From Cyanophyceae cyanobacterium (lineage in GTDB: Bacteria > Cyanobacteriota > Cyanobacteriia > Cyanobacteriales > JBHJGN01): a stretch of DNA of 64,000 bases. A program made the position numbers and the translations under genes. Positions within the stretch are counted from its first letter, which is position 1. Every line of letters begins with the position of its first letter. The notes under the pieces were generated by a model. That model saw only the letters and a list, made by a program, of their open reading frames with translations, searched no databases and had not been told where the DNA came from. Where the stretch lies: assembly GCA_050331735.1 (NCBI GenBank), contig JBHJGN010000007.1:32001-96000 (forward strand). Reading direction: 5' to 3'. Below, one piece after another: positions 3,135 through 17,170 of the stretch.

Positions 3135-3648
3135 TTCCCTTTCTCTGTCCCGCACCGGACTTCCCTTTCTCGAAGTGTTGACGCTCGTGAATCAAACCGA
3201 CTTAGCCTTTACCTCTGCCCTAGAGCAAGCCCAGTTGATTCGTCAGCGGCAAGTATCGCCTTTAGAAATCACGGAGCTTTATTTAGAACGAATTGAGCGC
3301 CTGAATCCTTCCCTCGGCAGCTTTTTCACCGTCGCCTCCGAGATAGCAATTGCTGATGCTGAAGCCAAAACTGAACAGCTAGCGCAAACGAAAGATTTAA
3401 CTGCGCTGCCGGCGTTTTTCGGCGTTCCTACCGCGATCAAAGATCTGAACAATGTAGCGGGAATGCCCTGCTCCTACGGAGTCCAGGCGCTCAAAGAGAG
3501 TCTGGCTACCGATGATGATGGAGTAGTCATGAAAATGAAGACAGCCGGGTTCATTATTTTAGGAAAGTCAGCAACCTCAGAACGATAACGCGGCTATTCC
3601 CGTCTTCAGCGGAGCAAGGCGGGGCAGGATAGCGGGAAAATCAAGGGT

Positions 3649-3786
3649 TCAATGCCCTTGATTTTTCCAATCATACCGTCTGATTATCTCTCTAATCGCT
3701 TCATTAAGAGACATTTCAGCATATTGGGCAAACTCTTTCACTTTCTCATGCTCCACATCCGAAACTCTTAAAGTCAGTCTTTTCAT
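3649..3786 (-). CDS. 45-aa ribbon-helix-helix (CopG/Arc-like) DNA-binding protein inside the IS, divergent from tnpB (below ORF-track cutoff)
   Basis: Manual translation MKRLTLRVSDVEHEKVKEFAQYAEMSLNEAIREIIRRYDWKNQGH; alternating beta-strand, helix, turn, S-L-N-E-A-I-R helix pattern. Confidence 0.75.
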   Translation of the reverse strand: MKRLTLRVSDVEHEKVKEFAQYAEMSLNEAIREIIRRYDWKNQGH

Positions 3787-3819
3787 GACACCGCTGTTAG
3801 TGGTACAATCAGTGTCATG
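3784..3819. promoter_or_regulatory. Divergent control region: inverted repeat CATGACAC/GTGTCATG containing both start codons, with extended -10 TGGTACAAT (3801-3809)
   Basis: Read directly from the sequence; the -10 lies 7 nt before the tnpB ATG, implying a leaderless transcript. Confidence 0.6.
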
Positions 3820-5109
3820 TTAACACGAAGAGTCACCTATCGACTGTATCCAACCCGCTCCCAAGCTAACAAGCTACACTGGGCGCGGAAAGCTCACTGC
3901 GACCTTTACAATGCAGCGATTGCTAACCGGAGGACGCAGTACAAACGGTTTGGACATTCAGTAGGTTATTTGGAGCAGCAAAACTCACTGCCAGCCTTTA
4001 AAGAGGTGTGGTACGAATACAAAGAGTTTGGCTGTCACGCTTTACAGGCGACGTTGAAACGAGTCGATTTTGCTTACAAGCGCTTCTTCAAGGGACTTGG
4101 AGGCTATCCTAAGTTTAAAGCTAAGCGATTCTATCGTGGCTGGACTTACCCGTGTAAACAGAGCTGGAAAGCGCATACCAGTGGGGTTAACGGTTCTCTT
4201 GAGCTTCGGGACTTAGGATTAAAGCTCAAGATGCGGGGACAAGCTCGAACCTGGGGAACTCCTAGCACTTGCACAATCTTTTTCCATCAAGGGAGGTGGT
4301 ACGCTTCTATCACTGTCAAATGCCTTCCTGAACGCGATACGGACAGTGGTGCTGTTGGCATTGACTTGGGTTGCAAGGATGCCGTAACGCTTTCTACTGC
4401 CGCCAAACTTTTGCCGAATGCATTCGGCAAAACAACTGGCGGGGGGGAAAAGATAGCTAAGCCAGAGTTCATTAAGGAGGGACAGCGCAAAGTTAAAGCA
4501 GCATCGAAGCGACTGAGGCGTAAGAGAGCGCCCAACCGGAACAAACGCATAAAAGCTTCCCGGCGCTGGAAGCGTGAGAGAGCCAAGGTTTCTCAACTAC
4601 AAAGGAAGGTAGCTCGTCAGCGCGAAGACTGGCTACATCAGATGACCAGCAGCATAGTTAGCCGTAATAGCCTAGTTGCTGGCGAACAGCTCAACGTGAA
4701 GGGCATGACCCGCAAGGGTAAACGCAAGTGCAAACGGGGTTTGAACCGCTCTATCCTAGAGGTCGGGTTTGGCACGATTGGGGGACTGCTTGACTACAAG
4801 CTCAAAGAGGCAGGAGGCATCTACCTTGAGTCGTCTACCCGCACCCTCAAGCCAACTCAGAGGTGTGCTAAGTGCTGGAAACTAACTCCTAAATCTCTTT
4901 CAGATAGAGTTCATGTTTGTCAGCACTGCCAGCATACCGAAGATCGTGACATCAATGCCGCTCAAGTCAACCTGGCTTGGGCAAGGGGGCAGGAACTGTC
5001 CTCTTTATCCGTCGAGTCGCCTAGCTCTACTGATTGTGGAAGCATGAAGCAACTAGGGGCGTTGAAGCGGAAGAAACTCCGTCCTCAGCCGTCAGGCAGG
5101 GCGGGGTAG
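3817..5109 (+). CDS. tnpB: RNA-guided endonuclease TnpB
   Basis: YRLYPT N-terminus, RuvC-I GIDLG, RuvC-II GEQLNV, Zn ribbon CAKC/CQHC, RuvC-III DRDINAA. Confidence 0.95.
   Translation: MLTRRVTYRLYPTRSQANKLHWARKAHCDLYNAAIANRRTQYKRFGHSVGYLEQQNSLPAFKEVWYEYKEFGCHALQATLKRVDFAYKRFFKGLGGYPKFKAKRFYRGWTYPCKQSWKAHTSGVNGSLELRDLGLKLKMRGQARTWGTPSTCTIFFHQGRWYASITVKCLPERDTDSGAVGIDLGCKDAVTLSTAAKLLPNAFGKTTGGGEKIAKPEFIKEGQRKVKAASKRLRRKRAPNRNKRIKASRRWKRERAKVSQLQRKVARQREDWLHQMTSSIVSRNSLVAGEQLNVKGMTRKGKRKCKRGLNRSILEVGFGTIGGLLDYKLKEAGGIYLESSTRTLKPTQRCAKCWKLTPKSLSDRVHVCQHCQHTEDRDINAAQVNLAWARGQELSSLSVESPSSTDCGSMKQLGALKRKKLRPQPSGRAG
4400..4442. repeat. In-frame hairpin insert within tnpB with perfect 24-bp palindrome TTTTGCCGAATGCATTCGGCAAAA (4409-4432)
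   Basis: Outer arms CCGCCA/TGGCGG; adds about 15 aa (AAKLLPNAFGKTTGG) between TLST and GEKI. Confidence 0.75.
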
Positions 5110-5132
5110 TTCATTTAGGCTCTTTACCCTAC
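4980..5132 (+). ncRNA. Predicted omegaRNA (reRNA) scaffold overlapping the tnpB 3' end, with guide read from the flank beyond 5114; 5' boundary approximate
   Basis: Stacked stems (AAGGGGGCAG/CTGTCCTCTT, CCTAG/CTAGG, right-end hairpin); known architecture of TnpB loci. Confidence 0.6.
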
Positions 5133-6208
5133 ACAGAACCGAGAGGTTTTCTGCCAACGCGCCATCCCTGGAACTTGGACTATACGGCTGGAGGTTCCAG
5201 TGGCGGAGCCGCCTCAGCCGTCGCGGCGGGGTTATGTCCTGTCGCTCACGGTTCGGACGGCGGTGGTTCGCTGCGCGGTCCCGCTGCCTGCTGTGGGTTA
5301 GTGGGCATTAAACCAGCGAGAGGTCGAGTCTCTCATGCCCCAGTTGGCGATCGCCAAAGCGGGATCTCTTCCGACGGTCCCCTCGCTTGTACCGTTACTG
5401 ATGCGGCGGCCTTACTAGATATCATGTCTGGCTACATTCCTGGCAACCCTTACTGGCTGCCAGAGTCGGAATCTTTTTTAGCAGCTACCCAAACCGATCC
5501 TCAACCGTTACGCATTGCGTTTTCTCTGGCTGTTTCTCCTGTGGGAGAGGCCGCGGCAGAGATTCAGCAGAGCGTTATAGAGATCGTAGAATTACTCGCC
5601 ATGATGGGTCACGTTGTTGAACCGGACTGTCCTGACTTTAGCGAGTTAGTCGAGCCGTTTATTCAGGTTTGGTCTGCTGGCGTGGCCGCTGCTGGTTTGC
5701 CCCTCGAGGCCCTAAGTCCGATGAATGGCTGGATTGCTCAACAGTCTGGACATGCCGGAGAGTATCTTCAGGCCGTCACTAAAATGCAGATTGTCGCGCG
5801 GCAAATCGTGCAGTTTTTCGACGCCGTGGACGTATTGGTGCTGCCGACCTATATGCATCCCCCCATTCGCATCGGGGAATGGAGCCAGCTAGAACCCGAA
5901 GCAACGCTCCGCCAGATTATTCACTGGATTGCTCCCTGTCCGCCCTTCAACGCCAGTGGCCTGCCTGCGATCGCCCTTCCTACTGGTTTCGACTCCCGTG
6001 ACTTGCCCAGGAGCGTTCAGTTGGTCGGCAAACCCGCAGCAGAGTCTACTCTGTTTTCTCTCGCGGCCCAGATTGAGTCCGCTCAACCCTGGAGCCACCA
6101 TCGCCCTGCTGTTGCGGCTTAAGACTCGTCACTCTTGATAATTCCCTTTCCCCTTTACCCCTGTTTCCTCACCCAATTTCTGTATAGTTCCGACACAGAA
6201 TCAGGGAA

Positions 6209-16627: not shown

Positions 16628-17170
16628 GGCGAATAGAATTCGCGGCTATACAAACAAAGTCCGCCTTCGCGGACTAGGAATTGTGCTCAATTAACAGGCG
16701 AAGATTATTTAGGCTGTAGTTCCCAAGAAGAAATAAGCAATTTCTGTCGATGGTGAAGTTTTTGGTTTCTGATATAATCGGCTACTTTGTCGATTCCTTC
16801 ATGATTAACGGTAAAAGCCGCATAGCTACCCTGCCATTTGAAGAATTGCGCTAGTTTAACTTCATGGTTAATGAGATGGGAAGAACTACCTTTTACCTGT
16901 TTAATTAATGCAGAAATAGGTAAAGTCGACGGAAATCCTACTAGCAGATGTACGTGATCTTCAATGCCACCTACAGCAATGACTGTATACTGTAGCTGTT
17001 CACACTGCCTGACTCTGCATAAACAATTCTCTGGATGTCAGGAGTGATAATCGGCAATCTATCCCAGCTTGCCCAAACACAGTGCCAGTACAGCTGGGTA
17101 AAGTGCGATCGCATTTCTTTTTAACCCGCGTAGGCGGGTTTCGCTTGTGTAGCCGCGAATTCTATTAGCC
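16628..17170. mobile_element. REP/RAYT-like unit: Y1 transposase pseudogene between 48-bp imperfect inverted repeats (16628-16675, 17123-17170)
   Basis: Arms match at 39/48 by manual alignment; each has a (G/A)TAG-CCGCGAAT motif and an inner hairpin with compensatory changes. Confidence 0.75.
16705..17114 (-). pseudogene. tnpA: Y1 (HUH) tyrosine transposase, IS200-like/RAYT, frameshifted near 17013-17015
   Basis: Manual translation MRSHFTQLYWHCVWAS...IVYA / VRQCEQL...IEDHVHLLV...KGSSSHLIN...WQGSYAAFTV...YIRNQKLHH; HUH and catalytic Tyr present. Confidence 0.85.

What the first reader, a model, noticed from the sequence alone, without database searches (positions are those of the whole stretch)
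3578..5132. tnpB element inserted between two amidase codons; guide/cleavage code readable at both ends gives target AGAA
Seen: removing 3583-5114 restores ...TCA GAA|TTA GGC... (SE|LG) with no duplication. The four bases 5' of each subterminal hairpin are CTAT (3594-3597) and GAAA (5073-5076). Established (IS608/ISDra2 model): guide bases 1, 2 and 4 pair with cleavage-site positions -3, -4 and -1. Applying that rule predicts AGxA on the left and TCxT on the right, and the sequence shows AGAA and TCAT. Inference: the TAM is (C)AGAA, unlike the T-rich TTGAT/TTAC sites of the model elements, and the omegaRNA guide TTAGGCTCTTTACC... would cut the IS-free amidase allele. In a polyploid cyanobacterium this could drive homing. 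The element has no tnpA, so it must be mobilised in trans.
Basis: partly seen in the sequence, partly recalled or inferred. Interest (0 to 1): 0.7.

Follow-up and report, generated by a model that had tools for sequence, protein, structure and literature searches.

The report
TnpB transposon splitting an amidase gene
A 1.5-kb IS200/IS605-type mobile element carrying an RNA-guided nuclease gene (tnpB) and a small repressor-like gene, but no transposase, sits exactly between two codons of a cyanobacterial amidase gene; its DNA "guide" bases correctly predict its insertion site AGAA, which makes it an ordinary but cleanly readable member of a well-known transposon family.

Summary
Window 3583-5114 is a 1532-bp IS200/IS605-family element inserted with no duplication between codons E and L of an amidase. 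All 11 orthologues examined in relatives read straight through that point. The element carries an intact tnpB with its D-E-D and zinc-finger motifs, and subterminal hairpins at both ends.

The IS608 guide/cleavage code works here. Guide CTAT predicts AGxA and the flank is AGAA. Guide GAAA predicts TCxT and the right end is TCAT.
- 15 of 16 related left ends with guide CTAT, and 2 of 3 with CTGT, are preceded by AGAA.
- Sister lineages with other guides sit behind the matching tetramers: CAGT/CATT behind TGAA, CAAG behind TGAC, CAAA behind TGAT, AATT behind TTTA.
- The fifth base (C) is not conserved.

A sibling copy with a tnpA-like gene and the same ends lies on another contig of the same genome.

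Still untested are ωRNA expression, TnpB's own TAM and homing. TnpBs 83% identical pair with AGAA or TGAA, so TnpB may read less than four bases. This is a new member of a known kind, of modest interest.

The parts
3175..3582 (+). Amidase gene, 5' part (136 codons), ending ...TCA GAA. The last four bases, AGAA (3579-3582), are the left cleavage/target site CL.
   Evidence: Pfam Amidase 2.7e-23, profile positions 1-102. Colinear with 11 of 11 intact orthologues.
3583..3668 (+). Left end (LE). It comprises an 11-nt spacer CGATAACGCGG (3583-3593); guide GL CTAT (3594-3597); subterminal hairpin 3598-3624; the conserved motif CAGGATAGCG (3625-3634); and a second hairpin 3634-3668 that overlaps the 3' end of the RHH gene.
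   Evidence: Sequence; DNA fold z = -3.2; inverted repeat I1. Homologous LEs in C38 and relatives show compensatory stem changes.
3649..3786 (-). 45-aa ribbon-helix-helix (Arc-like) gene, divergent from tnpB and occupying the place that tnpA holds in sibling elements.
   Evidence: Weak Pfam RHH-type hits, all below the curated cut-offs. Similar 44-56 aa ORFs lie at the same place in tnpA-less relatives. AF2 model pLDDT 87.9; the top Foldseek matches are CopG, Arc, AmrZ and PutA RHH domains with TM 0.72-0.83. Arc of IS605 elements is described in bioRxiv 10.64898/2026.09.24.754181.
3777..3826 (.). 31-bp arc-tnpB intergenic region. It holds a promoter-like site (TTTTCA, 18 nt, TG-n-TACAAT ending at 3809) bracketed by an inverted repeat (3777-3791 / 3812-3826). 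This is the candidate divergent promoter and Arc operator.
   Evidence: Consensus scan found 1 site against 0.8 expected, so this is weak. Inverted repeat I2 is 80% complementary. The operator role is inference by analogy with the Arc preprint.
3817..5109 (+). tnpB, 430 aa, open frame, RuvC D-E-D and CxxC...CxxC motifs present.
   Evidence: Pfam OrfB_IS605, Cas12f1-like_TNB and HTH_OrfB_IS605. Alignment to ISDra2 TnpB (8bf8/8exa) at 4.5e-25, with GIDLG, GEQL and DRDINAA aligned to its GVDVG, TEHL and DRDENAA.
4987..5114 (+). Presumed ωRNA scaffold, 3' part. It includes stem 4987-4992/4996-5001, the conserved GGAAGCATGAAGCAAC...GAAGCG block, and the right-end hairpin. Its 5' limit is unknown.
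   Evidence: In a 28-sequence alignment, RNAalifold finds this stem with 5 of 6 pairs showing compensatory changes. Nucleotide conservation is high although the TnpBs are only 44-84% identical. No Rfam family matches. Expression was not tested.
5073..5114 (+). Right end (RE). It comprises guide GR GAAA (5073-5076); hairpin 5077-5106; linker TAGT; and right cleavage site CR TCAT (5111-5114).
   Evidence: The architecture GAAA, hairpin, TAGTTCAT is conserved while the stems covary.
5115..5134 (+). Flank that would be transcribed as the ωRNA guide (TTAGGCTCTTTACCCTACAC). Together with AGAA it would form the target in an IS-free amidase allele.
   Evidence: Inference from the ISDra2 model (PMC8612924, passages read). 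Not tested.
5115..6122 (+). Amidase gene, 3' part (335 codons plus stop).
   Evidence: Pfam Amidase 2.9e-74, profile positions 106-444. Orthologues are 54-70% identical, with open frames of 468-496 aa in relatives.

Best explanation
Window 3583-5114 is a non-autonomous IS200/IS605-family insertion sequence with the layout LE, arc-like RHH gene (leftward), tnpB (rightward), RE. It integrated as single-stranded DNA immediately 3' of the tetranucleotide AGAA inside an amidase gene, and it splits and presumably inactivates that gene.

Target choice is encoded in the element's own DNA. The four bases 5' of the left hairpin (CTAT) pair with AGAA: base 1 with position -3, base 2 with -4, and base 4 with -1. 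The four bases 5' of the right hairpin (GAAA) pair in the same way with the element's last four bases, TCAT. This is the IS608 mechanism.

The element has no tnpA, so excision and integration need a Y1 transposase supplied in trans. The best candidate is the sibling element on contig C38 of the same genome, which has the same guides, closely similar hairpin stems and an open tnpA-like frame.

The rest is inferred by analogy with ISDra2. tnpB and the 3' end of the element would give a TnpB-ωRNA complex whose guide is the flank TTAGGCTCTTTACC.... That complex would cut an IS-free amidase allele next to AGAA and so favour retention of the element. The RHH protein most likely represses the divergent arc/tnpB promoter.

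Shown here: anatomy, exact boundaries, target tetranucleotide and the guide code. Inferred: ωRNA, TAM, nuclease activity, repression and trans-mobilisation.
For: Boundaries and the empty site:
- 11 of 11 orthologous amidases are uninterrupted and colinear at the junction.
- The Pfam Amidase profile continues from position 102 to 106 across the gap.
- Three own-genome copies, and 33 of the 45 related loci scanned, have a right end within one mismatch of GTAGTTCAT.

The code as published:
- IS608 has CL TTAC, CR TCAA, GL AAAG and GR GAAT (PMC5934647, Fig. 1 legend).
- The first and second guide bases pair with C-3 and T-4, and A-2 is unpaired (PMC3201880, passages).

Test on other copies with guide CT(A/G)T:
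- CTAT with an intact hairpin: 15 of 16 distinct insertions are preceded by AGAA. These are the window, C38, L010 (= L190), L025 (= L184), L006, L007, G076 x3, G050 x3, G144, G397 and G190.
- CTGT: 2 of 3 are preceded by AGAA (L045, L039).
- The pattern used specified nothing upstream of CGCGR. Its reversed control found 0 matches in 401 genomes.

Covariation in other guide classes:
- CAGT: 7 of 7 have TGAA.
- CATT: 3 of 3 have TGAA.
- CAAT: 2 of 3 have TGAA.
- AATT: 6 of 6 have TTNA.
- In 115 unique metagenomic left ends: CAAG has TGNC in 98 of 100, CAAA has TGAT in 5 of 5, TTAT has AAAA in 1 of 1, and GAGT has TCAA in 1 of 1.

TnpB: the Pfam domains are present, and the D, E, D and zinc-finger residues align with ISDra2 TnpB.

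Sibling tnpA on C38: Y1_Tnp 7.5e-26 over profile positions 2-120 of 121, HIH motif and C-terminal Tyr conserved, no internal stop.

RHH gene: conserved in at least five other tnpA-less relatives, with the RHH fold supported by a model and fold search. The Arc repressor role was shown for other IS605 elements (bioRxiv 10.64898/2026.09.24.754181; abstract and sections 3, 5, 6 read).

ωRNA: one covarying stem lies inside the tnpB 3' coding region.
Against: - No expression data. No RNA run holds the region and no Rfam family matches.
- TnpB's TAM and cleavage were not tested.
- There is no sign of recent mobility. The own genome has one copy of this form, the nearest sibling is only 81% identical in DNA, and there is one solo right-end remnant.
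- The C38 tnpA-like frame lacks the ATG that relatives have. It would need a GTG 16 codons upstream or a non-standard start, so it may be dead.
- Exceptions to the code exist. L009 has CTAT but no AGNA, with the 5' part of its LE not alignable. L030 has CTGT but TGAA, with its hairpin lost and its tnpB truncated. L046 and L027 have CTAT displaced by CCTT, which extends the stem, and a TGAA flank. Five metagenomic singletons (CAAT, TAAG, TAGG, CGAG, AAAG) all have TGAC.
- On the TnpB tree the AGAA label needs at least 3 changes. L025 (AGAA) and L036 (TGAA) are 83% identical. The protein's TAM may therefore not track the DNA guide at position -4.
- The single consensus promoter match is at chance level.
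Confidence: 0.8

Rival explanations
1. TnpB's TAM is laxer than, or different from, the TnpA target. The DNA guide fixes AGAA for integration, but the nuclease reads only part of it (for example GAA or WGAA), so writing 'TAM = (C)AGAA' overstates what the protein recognises.
For: AGAA- and TGAA-targeting elements are interleaved on the TnpB tree; the AGAA label needs at least 3 changes on well-supported branches. L025 (AGAA) and L036 (TGAA) come from one genome and have TnpBs 83% identical. A single base change in the guide, CTAT to CAAT, is enough to switch the target. The base at -5 varies freely.
Against: In ISDra2 the TAM found by library cleavage equals the full TnpA target TTGAT (PMC8612924). 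17% sequence difference is enough to change a TAM contact. No TAM data exist for any member of this clade.
Confidence: 0.35
2. The element is an immobile relic. It inserted long ago, is fixed, and neither transposes nor homes any more. tnpB and arc are open by chance or for another reason.
For: There is a single copy of this form, with the nearest sibling 81% identical. The IS-bearing allele has the same contig depth (45.9) as its flanks (45.9 and 45.1) in the one metagenome run that holds it. The C38 tnpA lacks a canonical start. No RNA evidence exists.
Against: A 430-codon tnpB frame with all catalytic residues, intact LE and RE with matching guide and cleavage bases, and an intact 45-codon RHH frame whose relatives are conserved all argue for recent purifying selection.
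Confidence: 0.25
3. CAGAA belongs to the element rather than to the host gene, so the left boundary lies 4-5 bases further left and AGAA is not a target.
For: CAGAA is shared by the window and C38 directly before the homologous left end, so copy comparison alone cannot place the boundary.
Against: 9 of 11 intact orthologous amidases have Ser-Glu (TCN GAA/GAG) at exactly this place, followed directly by (L/V)GS. The right boundary is fixed independently. The base at -5 differs among insertions.
Confidence: 0.02

Closest known systems
IS608 (Helicobacter pylori), the structural model of the IS200/IS605 family
   Same: Subterminal hairpins on one strand, no terminal inverted repeats and no target duplication. 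Insertion is 3' of a tetranucleotide. Four guide bases 5' of each hairpin pair with cleavage-site positions -3, -4 and -1. There is a second hairpin 3' of the left hairpin. (PMC3201880 and PMC5934647, passages read.)
   Different: The target is AGAA rather than TTAC, and the right site is TCAT rather than TCAA. The distance from cleavage site to hairpin foot is 15 nt at LE and 8 nt at RE, against 19 and 10 in IS608. There is no tnpA; an RHH gene sits in its place, divergent from tnpB.
ISDra2 (Deinococcus radiodurans) TnpB-ωRNA/reRNA system
   Same: tnpB lies next to RE. The TnpB aligns over residues 6-382 with the D, E and D residues conserved. In the model, the guide comes from the RE flank and the TAM equals the TnpA target (PMC8612924).
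   Different: By BLAST/HMMER only distant similarity (E 4.5e-25). The predicted TAM is AGAA, not TTGAT. Nothing has been tested experimentally. In my metagenome set, ISDra2-like TGAT targets go with guide CAAA.
Characterised TnpBs with TAM TGAC (ISAba30), TGAT (ISTfu1), TTAT (ISDge10) and TTTAA (ISAam1), as listed in Table 2 of PMC10787141
   Same: They show that TAMs differ among TnpB lineages. TGAC and TGAT are the flanks I find for guides CAAG and CAAA in left ends sharing this element's conserved LE motif.
   Different: AGAA is not among the listed TAMs. No open-access paper in the library holds TnpB, TAM and AGAA together (whole-word search).
Arc-containing IS605-family elements (Moon, Zedaveinyte, Wiegand, Sternberg; bioRxiv 10.64898/2026.09.24.754181)
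   Same: A small RHH gene lies inside the IS, on the strand opposite tnpB, with a short intergenic region as the presumed bidirectional promoter. The preprint mentions elements that have arc and tnpB only.
   Different: Binding and repression have not been shown for this protein. Here arc appears to replace tnpA rather than accompany it.
PATE-like miniature derivatives of IS200/IS605 (name recalled from memory, not from a call)
   Same: They depend on TnpA supplied in trans. About 350-nt LE-ωRNA-RE miniatures of the same AGAA subfamily occur in genomes G050 and G076.
   Different: The window's element keeps a full tnpB and a regulator gene. It is non-autonomous only for transposition.

Membership tests
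IS200/IS605 insertion sequences | Encodes a Y1 (HUH) TnpA transposase | tested here: not met
   There is no Y1_Tnp ORF within 3583-5114. The sibling on C38 has one. tnpA-less derivatives are accepted members of the family, so this makes the element non-autonomous rather than excluding it.
IS200/IS605 insertion sequences | Subterminal imperfect hairpins at both ends on the same strand, with no terminal inverted repeats | tested here: met
   LE hairpin 3598-3624 and RE hairpin 5077-5106 have similar stems, xCCCGTCxT/AxGGCGGGG. The stems covary in relatives.
IS200/IS605 insertion sequences | Insertion 3' of a specific tetra/pentanucleotide, without target-site duplication | tested here: met
   The empty site is seen in 11 of 11 orthologues with no duplication. 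AGAA precedes 17 of 19 left ends with guide CT(A/G)T.
IS200/IS605 insertion sequences | Guide tetranucleotide 5' of each hairpin complementary to the cleavage site (1:-3, 2:-4, 4:-1) | tested here: met
   CTAT pairs with AGAA and GAAA with TCAT. Covariation is seen across at least 9 guide classes.
TnpB RNA-guided nucleases (OMEGA) | RuvC-like D-E-D triad and zinc-finger/TNB domain | tested here: met
   Pfam OrfB_IS605 and Cas12f1-like_TNB. Aligned to ISDra2 TnpB, with the residues at its D191-equivalent GIDLG motif, the E and the DRD motif conserved. The D191 role comes from PMC8612924; the E and second-D numbering is recalled.
TnpB RNA-guided nucleases (OMEGA) | ωRNA encoded at the 3' end of tnpB/RE, with its guide read from the flank | tested here: inconclusive
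   One covarying stem (5 of 6 pairs) and strong nucleotide conservation. No Rfam hit. No RNA run is available.
TnpB RNA-guided nucleases (OMEGA) | TAM-dependent cleavage of double-stranded DNA | not testable with these tools
   This needs a TAM-library or plasmid-interference assay.
Arc (RHH) repressors of IS605 elements | Ribbon-helix-helix fold | tested here: met
   AF2 model pLDDT 87.9 with two helices after an N-terminal extended segment. Foldseek top matches are CopG, Arc, AmrZ and PutA RHH domains at TM 0.72-0.83 and probability 0.9-0.99, although E-values are only about 0.1 because the protein is so short. The Pfam RHH hits are below the gathering cut-offs.
Arc (RHH) repressors of IS605 elements | Encoded inside the IS, next to and divergent from tnpB | tested here: met
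   The gene is at 3649-3786 on the minus strand, between LE and tnpB. The same layout is found in G030 (4 copies), L030, L031 and L033.
Arc (RHH) repressors of IS605 elements | Binds and represses the element's own promoter | not testable with these tools
   There is only a candidate operator: inverted repeat 3777-3791/3812-3826 around a promoter-like site.

The most novel reading that the evidence does not exclude
This cyanobacterial clade records repeated natural retargeting of an IS. Single-base changes in the DNA guide (CTAT, CAAT, CAGT) switch integration between AGAA and TGAA among elements whose TnpBs are up to 83% identical, even within one genome. Either TnpB in this clade reads only a purine-rich GAA core, which would make it a compact nuclease with an unusually short, non-T-rich TAM, or its TAM contacts co-evolve very quickly with one base of DNA. 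The L025/L036 pair and the window's element would let that coupling between the transposase's DNA guide and the nuclease's protein-read TAM be mapped to a few residues.
Probability: 0.35. Interest if true: 0.5.

Novelty: new member of a known kind. Interest (0 to 1): 0.3.

Why it matters
The finding shows that the IS608 guide/cleavage code, worked out on two model elements, can be read straight off raw sequence to predict the target of an uncharacterised element. Natural covariation across more than 150 left ends backs the code. The finding also gives a concrete, testable TAM prediction, AGAA, which is purine-rich and absent from the characterised TAMs I could find. It identifies a same-genome candidate helper transposase. 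It provides closely related TnpB pairs with different targets, which are useful for asking how nuclease TAM specificity keeps pace with a DNA-encoded transposase target. Biologically it is one more gene knocked out by an IS, and mechanistically nothing here departs from the known family.

Tried and rejected
- Rfam scan of 3400-5400 at E up to 1: 0 matches.
- Sequencing runs: no RNA holder is listed, so nothing can be said about ωRNA or tnpB expression.
- Laying contigs of 4 runs. One contig of run X1 (depth 32) joins 3582 directly to 5115, with 26 letters on the shorter side. It matches the window only from 3544, and the 30 letters before that agree at 19 of 30 positions with the window. I therefore read it as the intact amidase of a co-occurring relative, not as an excision product of this strain. 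It adds one more natural empty site and is no evidence for homing. X2-X4 hold almost nothing of the region.
- A first fuzzy search for the window's 15-mer LE start in relatives found only L007. The left ends had to be found through the conserved ATAGCG motif, through likeness to the right-end hairpin arms and by eye.
- The MAFFT alignment of right-end regions is too gappy around the terminal hairpin for RNAalifold to call it. The hairpin's covariation is seen in the single folds instead.
- Left ends were not identified for L019, L022 and L029.
- The search of earlier findings: nothing on this genome for these words.
- Consensus promoter and terminator scan: counts are at the level of shuffles.
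- I considered and rejected the idea that the pairing of CTAT with ATAG 3' of the left hairpin competes with the guide role. It is conserved, but in IS608 the bases 3' of the hairpin are implicated in base triples with the guide (PMC3201880), which may explain the conservation. This is not resolved here.
Full report
**1. The observation**

- TCA GAA is 3577-3582.
- The inserted segment is 3583-5114 (1532 bp).
- CTAT (3594-3597) lies directly 5' of the hairpin TCCCGTCTT-loop-AAGGCGGGG (3598-3624).
- GAAA (5073-5076) lies directly 5' of the hairpin CTCCGTCCT-loop-AGGGCGGGG (5077-5106).
- The left flank ends in AGAA and the segment ends in TCAT.

The flanking ORFs are the two halves of one amidase. 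They match Pfam Amidase positions 1-102 and 106-444.

I fetched the orthologous gene from relatives. 29 of the 40 other genomes searched have a homologue at E below 1e-118, with open frames of 468-496 aa. I looked at the 11 best. In 11 of 11 the gene runs straight through, reading GKTA(T/A)S(E/A/Q) then (L/V/I)GS(F/L/M)P(Y/F). This is colinear with GKSATSE|LGSLPY in the window. The insertion is exact to the base and there is no target duplication.

**2. What the element is**

tnpB (3817-5109, 430 aa) carries OrfB_IS605, Cas12f1-like TNB and HTH_OrfB_IS605 domains. It aligns with ISDra2 TnpB (8bf8/8exa, E 4.5e-25). The first Asp (GIDLG against GVDVG), the Glu (GEQL against TEHL) and the DRD motif are conserved, as are the two CxxC pairs.

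- It gives only sub-threshold Pfam hits, all to ribbon-helix-helix families.
- Comparable 44-56 aa ORFs sit at the same place in tnpA-less relatives: G030 (4 copies), L030, L031, L033, and possibly L021 and L020. They align with a typical RHH pattern at 21-34% identity.
- An AF2 model built on that alignment has pLDDT 87.9. Its best structural matches are CopG, Arc, AmrZ, PutA-RHH and RHH antitoxins, at TM 0.72-0.83.
- A 2026 preprint describes exactly such 'Arc' genes in IS605-family elements, including arc+tnpB-only elements. It shows for other homologues that Arc represses the divergent promoter (bioRxiv 10.64898/2026.09.24.754181; abstract and sections 3, 5 and 6 read).
- In the window, the 31-bp arc-tnpB spacer holds a promoter-like TTTTCA-18-TGnTACAAT. 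An imperfect inverted repeat (3777-3791/3812-3826) brackets it. This is only a candidate operator.

**3. Other copies in the same genome**

The genome is G000, with 99 contigs.
- **Contig C38** has a sibling that is 81% identical in DNA from the tnpB start to the right end, with a TnpB 84% identical. It has the same guides: CTAT next to a left hairpin with compensatory stem changes, and GAAA. It has the same terminus, GTAGTTCAT. In place of the RHH gene it has a divergent tnpA-like frame.
- **That tnpA-like frame** matches Y1_Tnp at 7.5e-26 over positions 2-120 of 121 and keeps the HIH motif and the C-terminal Tyr. It lacks the ATG of its relatives; a GTG lies 16 codons upstream.
- **The C38 left end** is also preceded by CAGAA.
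- **Contig C20** holds an 80-bp solo right-end remnant.
- **Other hits.** Eight further tnpB-like hits are distant (23-32% identity). Seven further Y1_Tnp hits exist besides the one on C38.

**4. Testing the guide/cleavage code**

First I checked the rule in print. IS608 has CL TTAC, CR TCAA, GL AAAG and GR GAAT (PMC5934647, Fig. 1 legend). The first two guide bases pair with C-3 and T-4, and A-2 is unpaired (PMC3201880).

I then collected left ends from three sources:
- (a) 19 loci encoding TnpB relatives in the species-representative genomes;
- (b) 40 relatives of the own genome;
- (c) a pattern search over 401 cyanobacterial genomes, which specified the guide CT(A/G)T, the hairpin start and the ATAG motif but nothing upstream. 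Its reversed-pattern control gave 0 hits.

Results by guide class:

| Guide | Result |
|---|---|
| CTAT (intact hairpin) | 15 of 16 distinct insertions have AGAA immediately before the element. The miss is L009, whose LE 5' part is not alignable. |
| CTGT | 2 of 3 have AGAA. The miss is L030, which has lost its hairpin and has a truncated tnpB. |
| CAGT | 7 of 7 have TGAA. |
| CATT | 3 of 3 have TGAA. |
| CAAT | 2 of 3 have TGAA. |
| AATT | 6 of 6 have TTNA (five TTTA, one TTAA). |
| AAGT | 1 of 1 has TTAA. |

- One further pattern match (G135) has no hairpin and no AGAA; I take it as a chance match.
- The base at -5 among the AGAA insertions is C, T, G or A.

| Guide | Flank found | Count |
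|---|---|---|
| CAAG | TGNC | 98 of 100 |
| CAAA | TGAT | 5 of 5 |
| CAGT | TGAA | 2 of 2 |
| CAGG | TGAC | 1 of 1 |
| TTAT | AAAA | 1 of 1 |
| GAGT | TCAA | 1 of 1 |

- Five singletons (CAAT, TAAG, TAGG, CGAG, AAAG) all have TGAC. Four are one base away from CAAG and TAGG is one base from CAGG. I read them as mutated copies of the majority type, which is an inference.
- All three pairing positions therefore covary in nature.
- TGAC and TGAT are also experimentally known TnpB TAMs (ISAba30, ISTfu1; Table 2 of PMC10787141).
- Two left ends do not fit. In L046 and L027, CTAT is separated from the core stem by CCTT, which extends the stem, and the flank is TGAA. I leave this unexplained.

**5. 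The right end**

33 of the 45 loci scanned show the same plan: (G/A)AAA, a hairpin whose stems differ but stay complementary, then TAGTTCAT. GR/CR is thus constant (GAAA/TCAT) while GL/CL varies.

The 3' end of tnpB is far more conserved in DNA than the proteins (44-84% identical) would lead one to expect. RNAalifold on 28 sequences finds a stem (window 4987-4992/4996-5001) with compensatory changes in 5 of 6 pairs. This fits an ωRNA scaffold overlapping the gene end, as in ISDra2, but it is indirect. No Rfam family matches and no RNA run holds the region.

**6. What remains inference**

That AGAA is TnpB's TAM follows only from the ISDra2 finding that the TAM equals the TnpA target (PMC8612924).

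A tree of 23 TnpBs gives a caution. I left out rows with less than about 330 aligned residues, and the G050/G076 miniatures, which have no tnpB. On this tree AGAA and TGAA elements are interleaved. The AGAA label needs at least 3 changes on starred branches, and L025 (AGAA) and L036 (TGAA), from one genome, are sisters with TnpBs 83% identical. Either TAM contacts change fast or position -4 is not read by the protein.

Homing in polyploid cells is untested.
- In the one metagenome run that holds the region (X1, contigs only), the IS-bearing allele has the same depth as its flanks.
- One contig joins 3582 to 5115 exactly. It diverges from the window upstream of 3544 (19 of 30 bases identical), so it is most simply the intact gene of a co-occurring relative.

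**7. Verdict**

This is a well-preserved, non-autonomous arc+tnpB element of the IS200/IS605 family with target AGAA. The mechanism is the known one. The predicted purine-rich TAM and the frequent AGAA/TGAA switching among close relatives are the only mildly new points. No open-access paper in the library holds TnpB, TAM and AGAA together. A second search for TnpB with TAM and related tetramers found only TGAC. Subscription papers, and supplements I could not see, may list such TAMs.

Noticed in passing
L191, L192, L195 (genomes G050 and G076; whole elements about 330-360 nt): These are miniature derivatives of the same AGAA subfamily. They have LE (guide CTAT), a second hairpin, a TACAAT-like -10, the conserved ωRNA-scaffold block and RE, but no tnpB ORF. 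Each is preceded by AGAA. They look like ωRNA-only passengers that depend on TnpA and TnpB supplied in trans.
   Followed up: partly
L182/L191/L192/L195 versus L183/L194 (G076, G050), LE hairpin loop: The 9-nt loop of the left hairpin occurs in both orientations (GCTTCGCTG and its reverse complement CAGCGAAGC) between otherwise identical stems. It is as if the hairpin had been flipped.
   Followed up: no
L025 and L036 (both genome G014): Two elements in one genome have TnpBs 83% identical. Their guides are CTAT versus CAAT and their flanks AGAA versus TGAA. This is a natural single-base retargeting pair.
   Followed up: partly
L046 (G030) and L027 (G036), left ends: The left hairpin is extended to a long perfect stem (GCGCTAT-CCTT-core ... 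AAGR-ATAGCGC). The flank is TGAA, which matches neither CTAT nor CCTT at position -4. This is an unexplained exception to the code. L046 carries an intact-looking tnpA.
   Followed up: no
G000 contig C20:91463-91542 (minus strand; outside the window): A solo 80-bp right-end remnant, 90% identical to the window's RE, ends in GTAGTTCAT and then has an unrelated flank. It has no tnpB and no LE.
   Followed up: partly
window 16762-17007 (minus strand; = G000:C7:48762-49007): A partial IS200-type Y1_Tnp match (profile positions 35-121, 64.5 bits, 110-aa open frame). This is another IS200/IS605 fragment in the window, unrelated to the finding.
   Followed up: no
window 4398-4444, run X1: One contig (depth 96.6) skips 45 bases inside tnpB (4398 joined to 4444). 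Depth over tnpB and RE rises to 100-250 against about 46 in the flanks. The community therefore holds several related tnpB copies, some lacking these 15 codons.
   Followed up: no
L006 and L007 (two Phormidesmis-like genomes), left flanks: Both insertions share 8 bases (AGATAGAA) before the element, although the flanks further upstream differ. This is either a longer target preference in that sublineage or coincidence.
   Followed up: no
window 3594-3598 and 3629-3633: GCTAT (which includes the guide) can pair with ATAGC just 3' of the left hairpin. The ATAGCG motif is conserved in most left ends of the wider family, including more than 100 metagenomic ones. It is possibly the counterpart of the triplet-forming bases 3' of the IS608 hairpin.
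   Followed up: no
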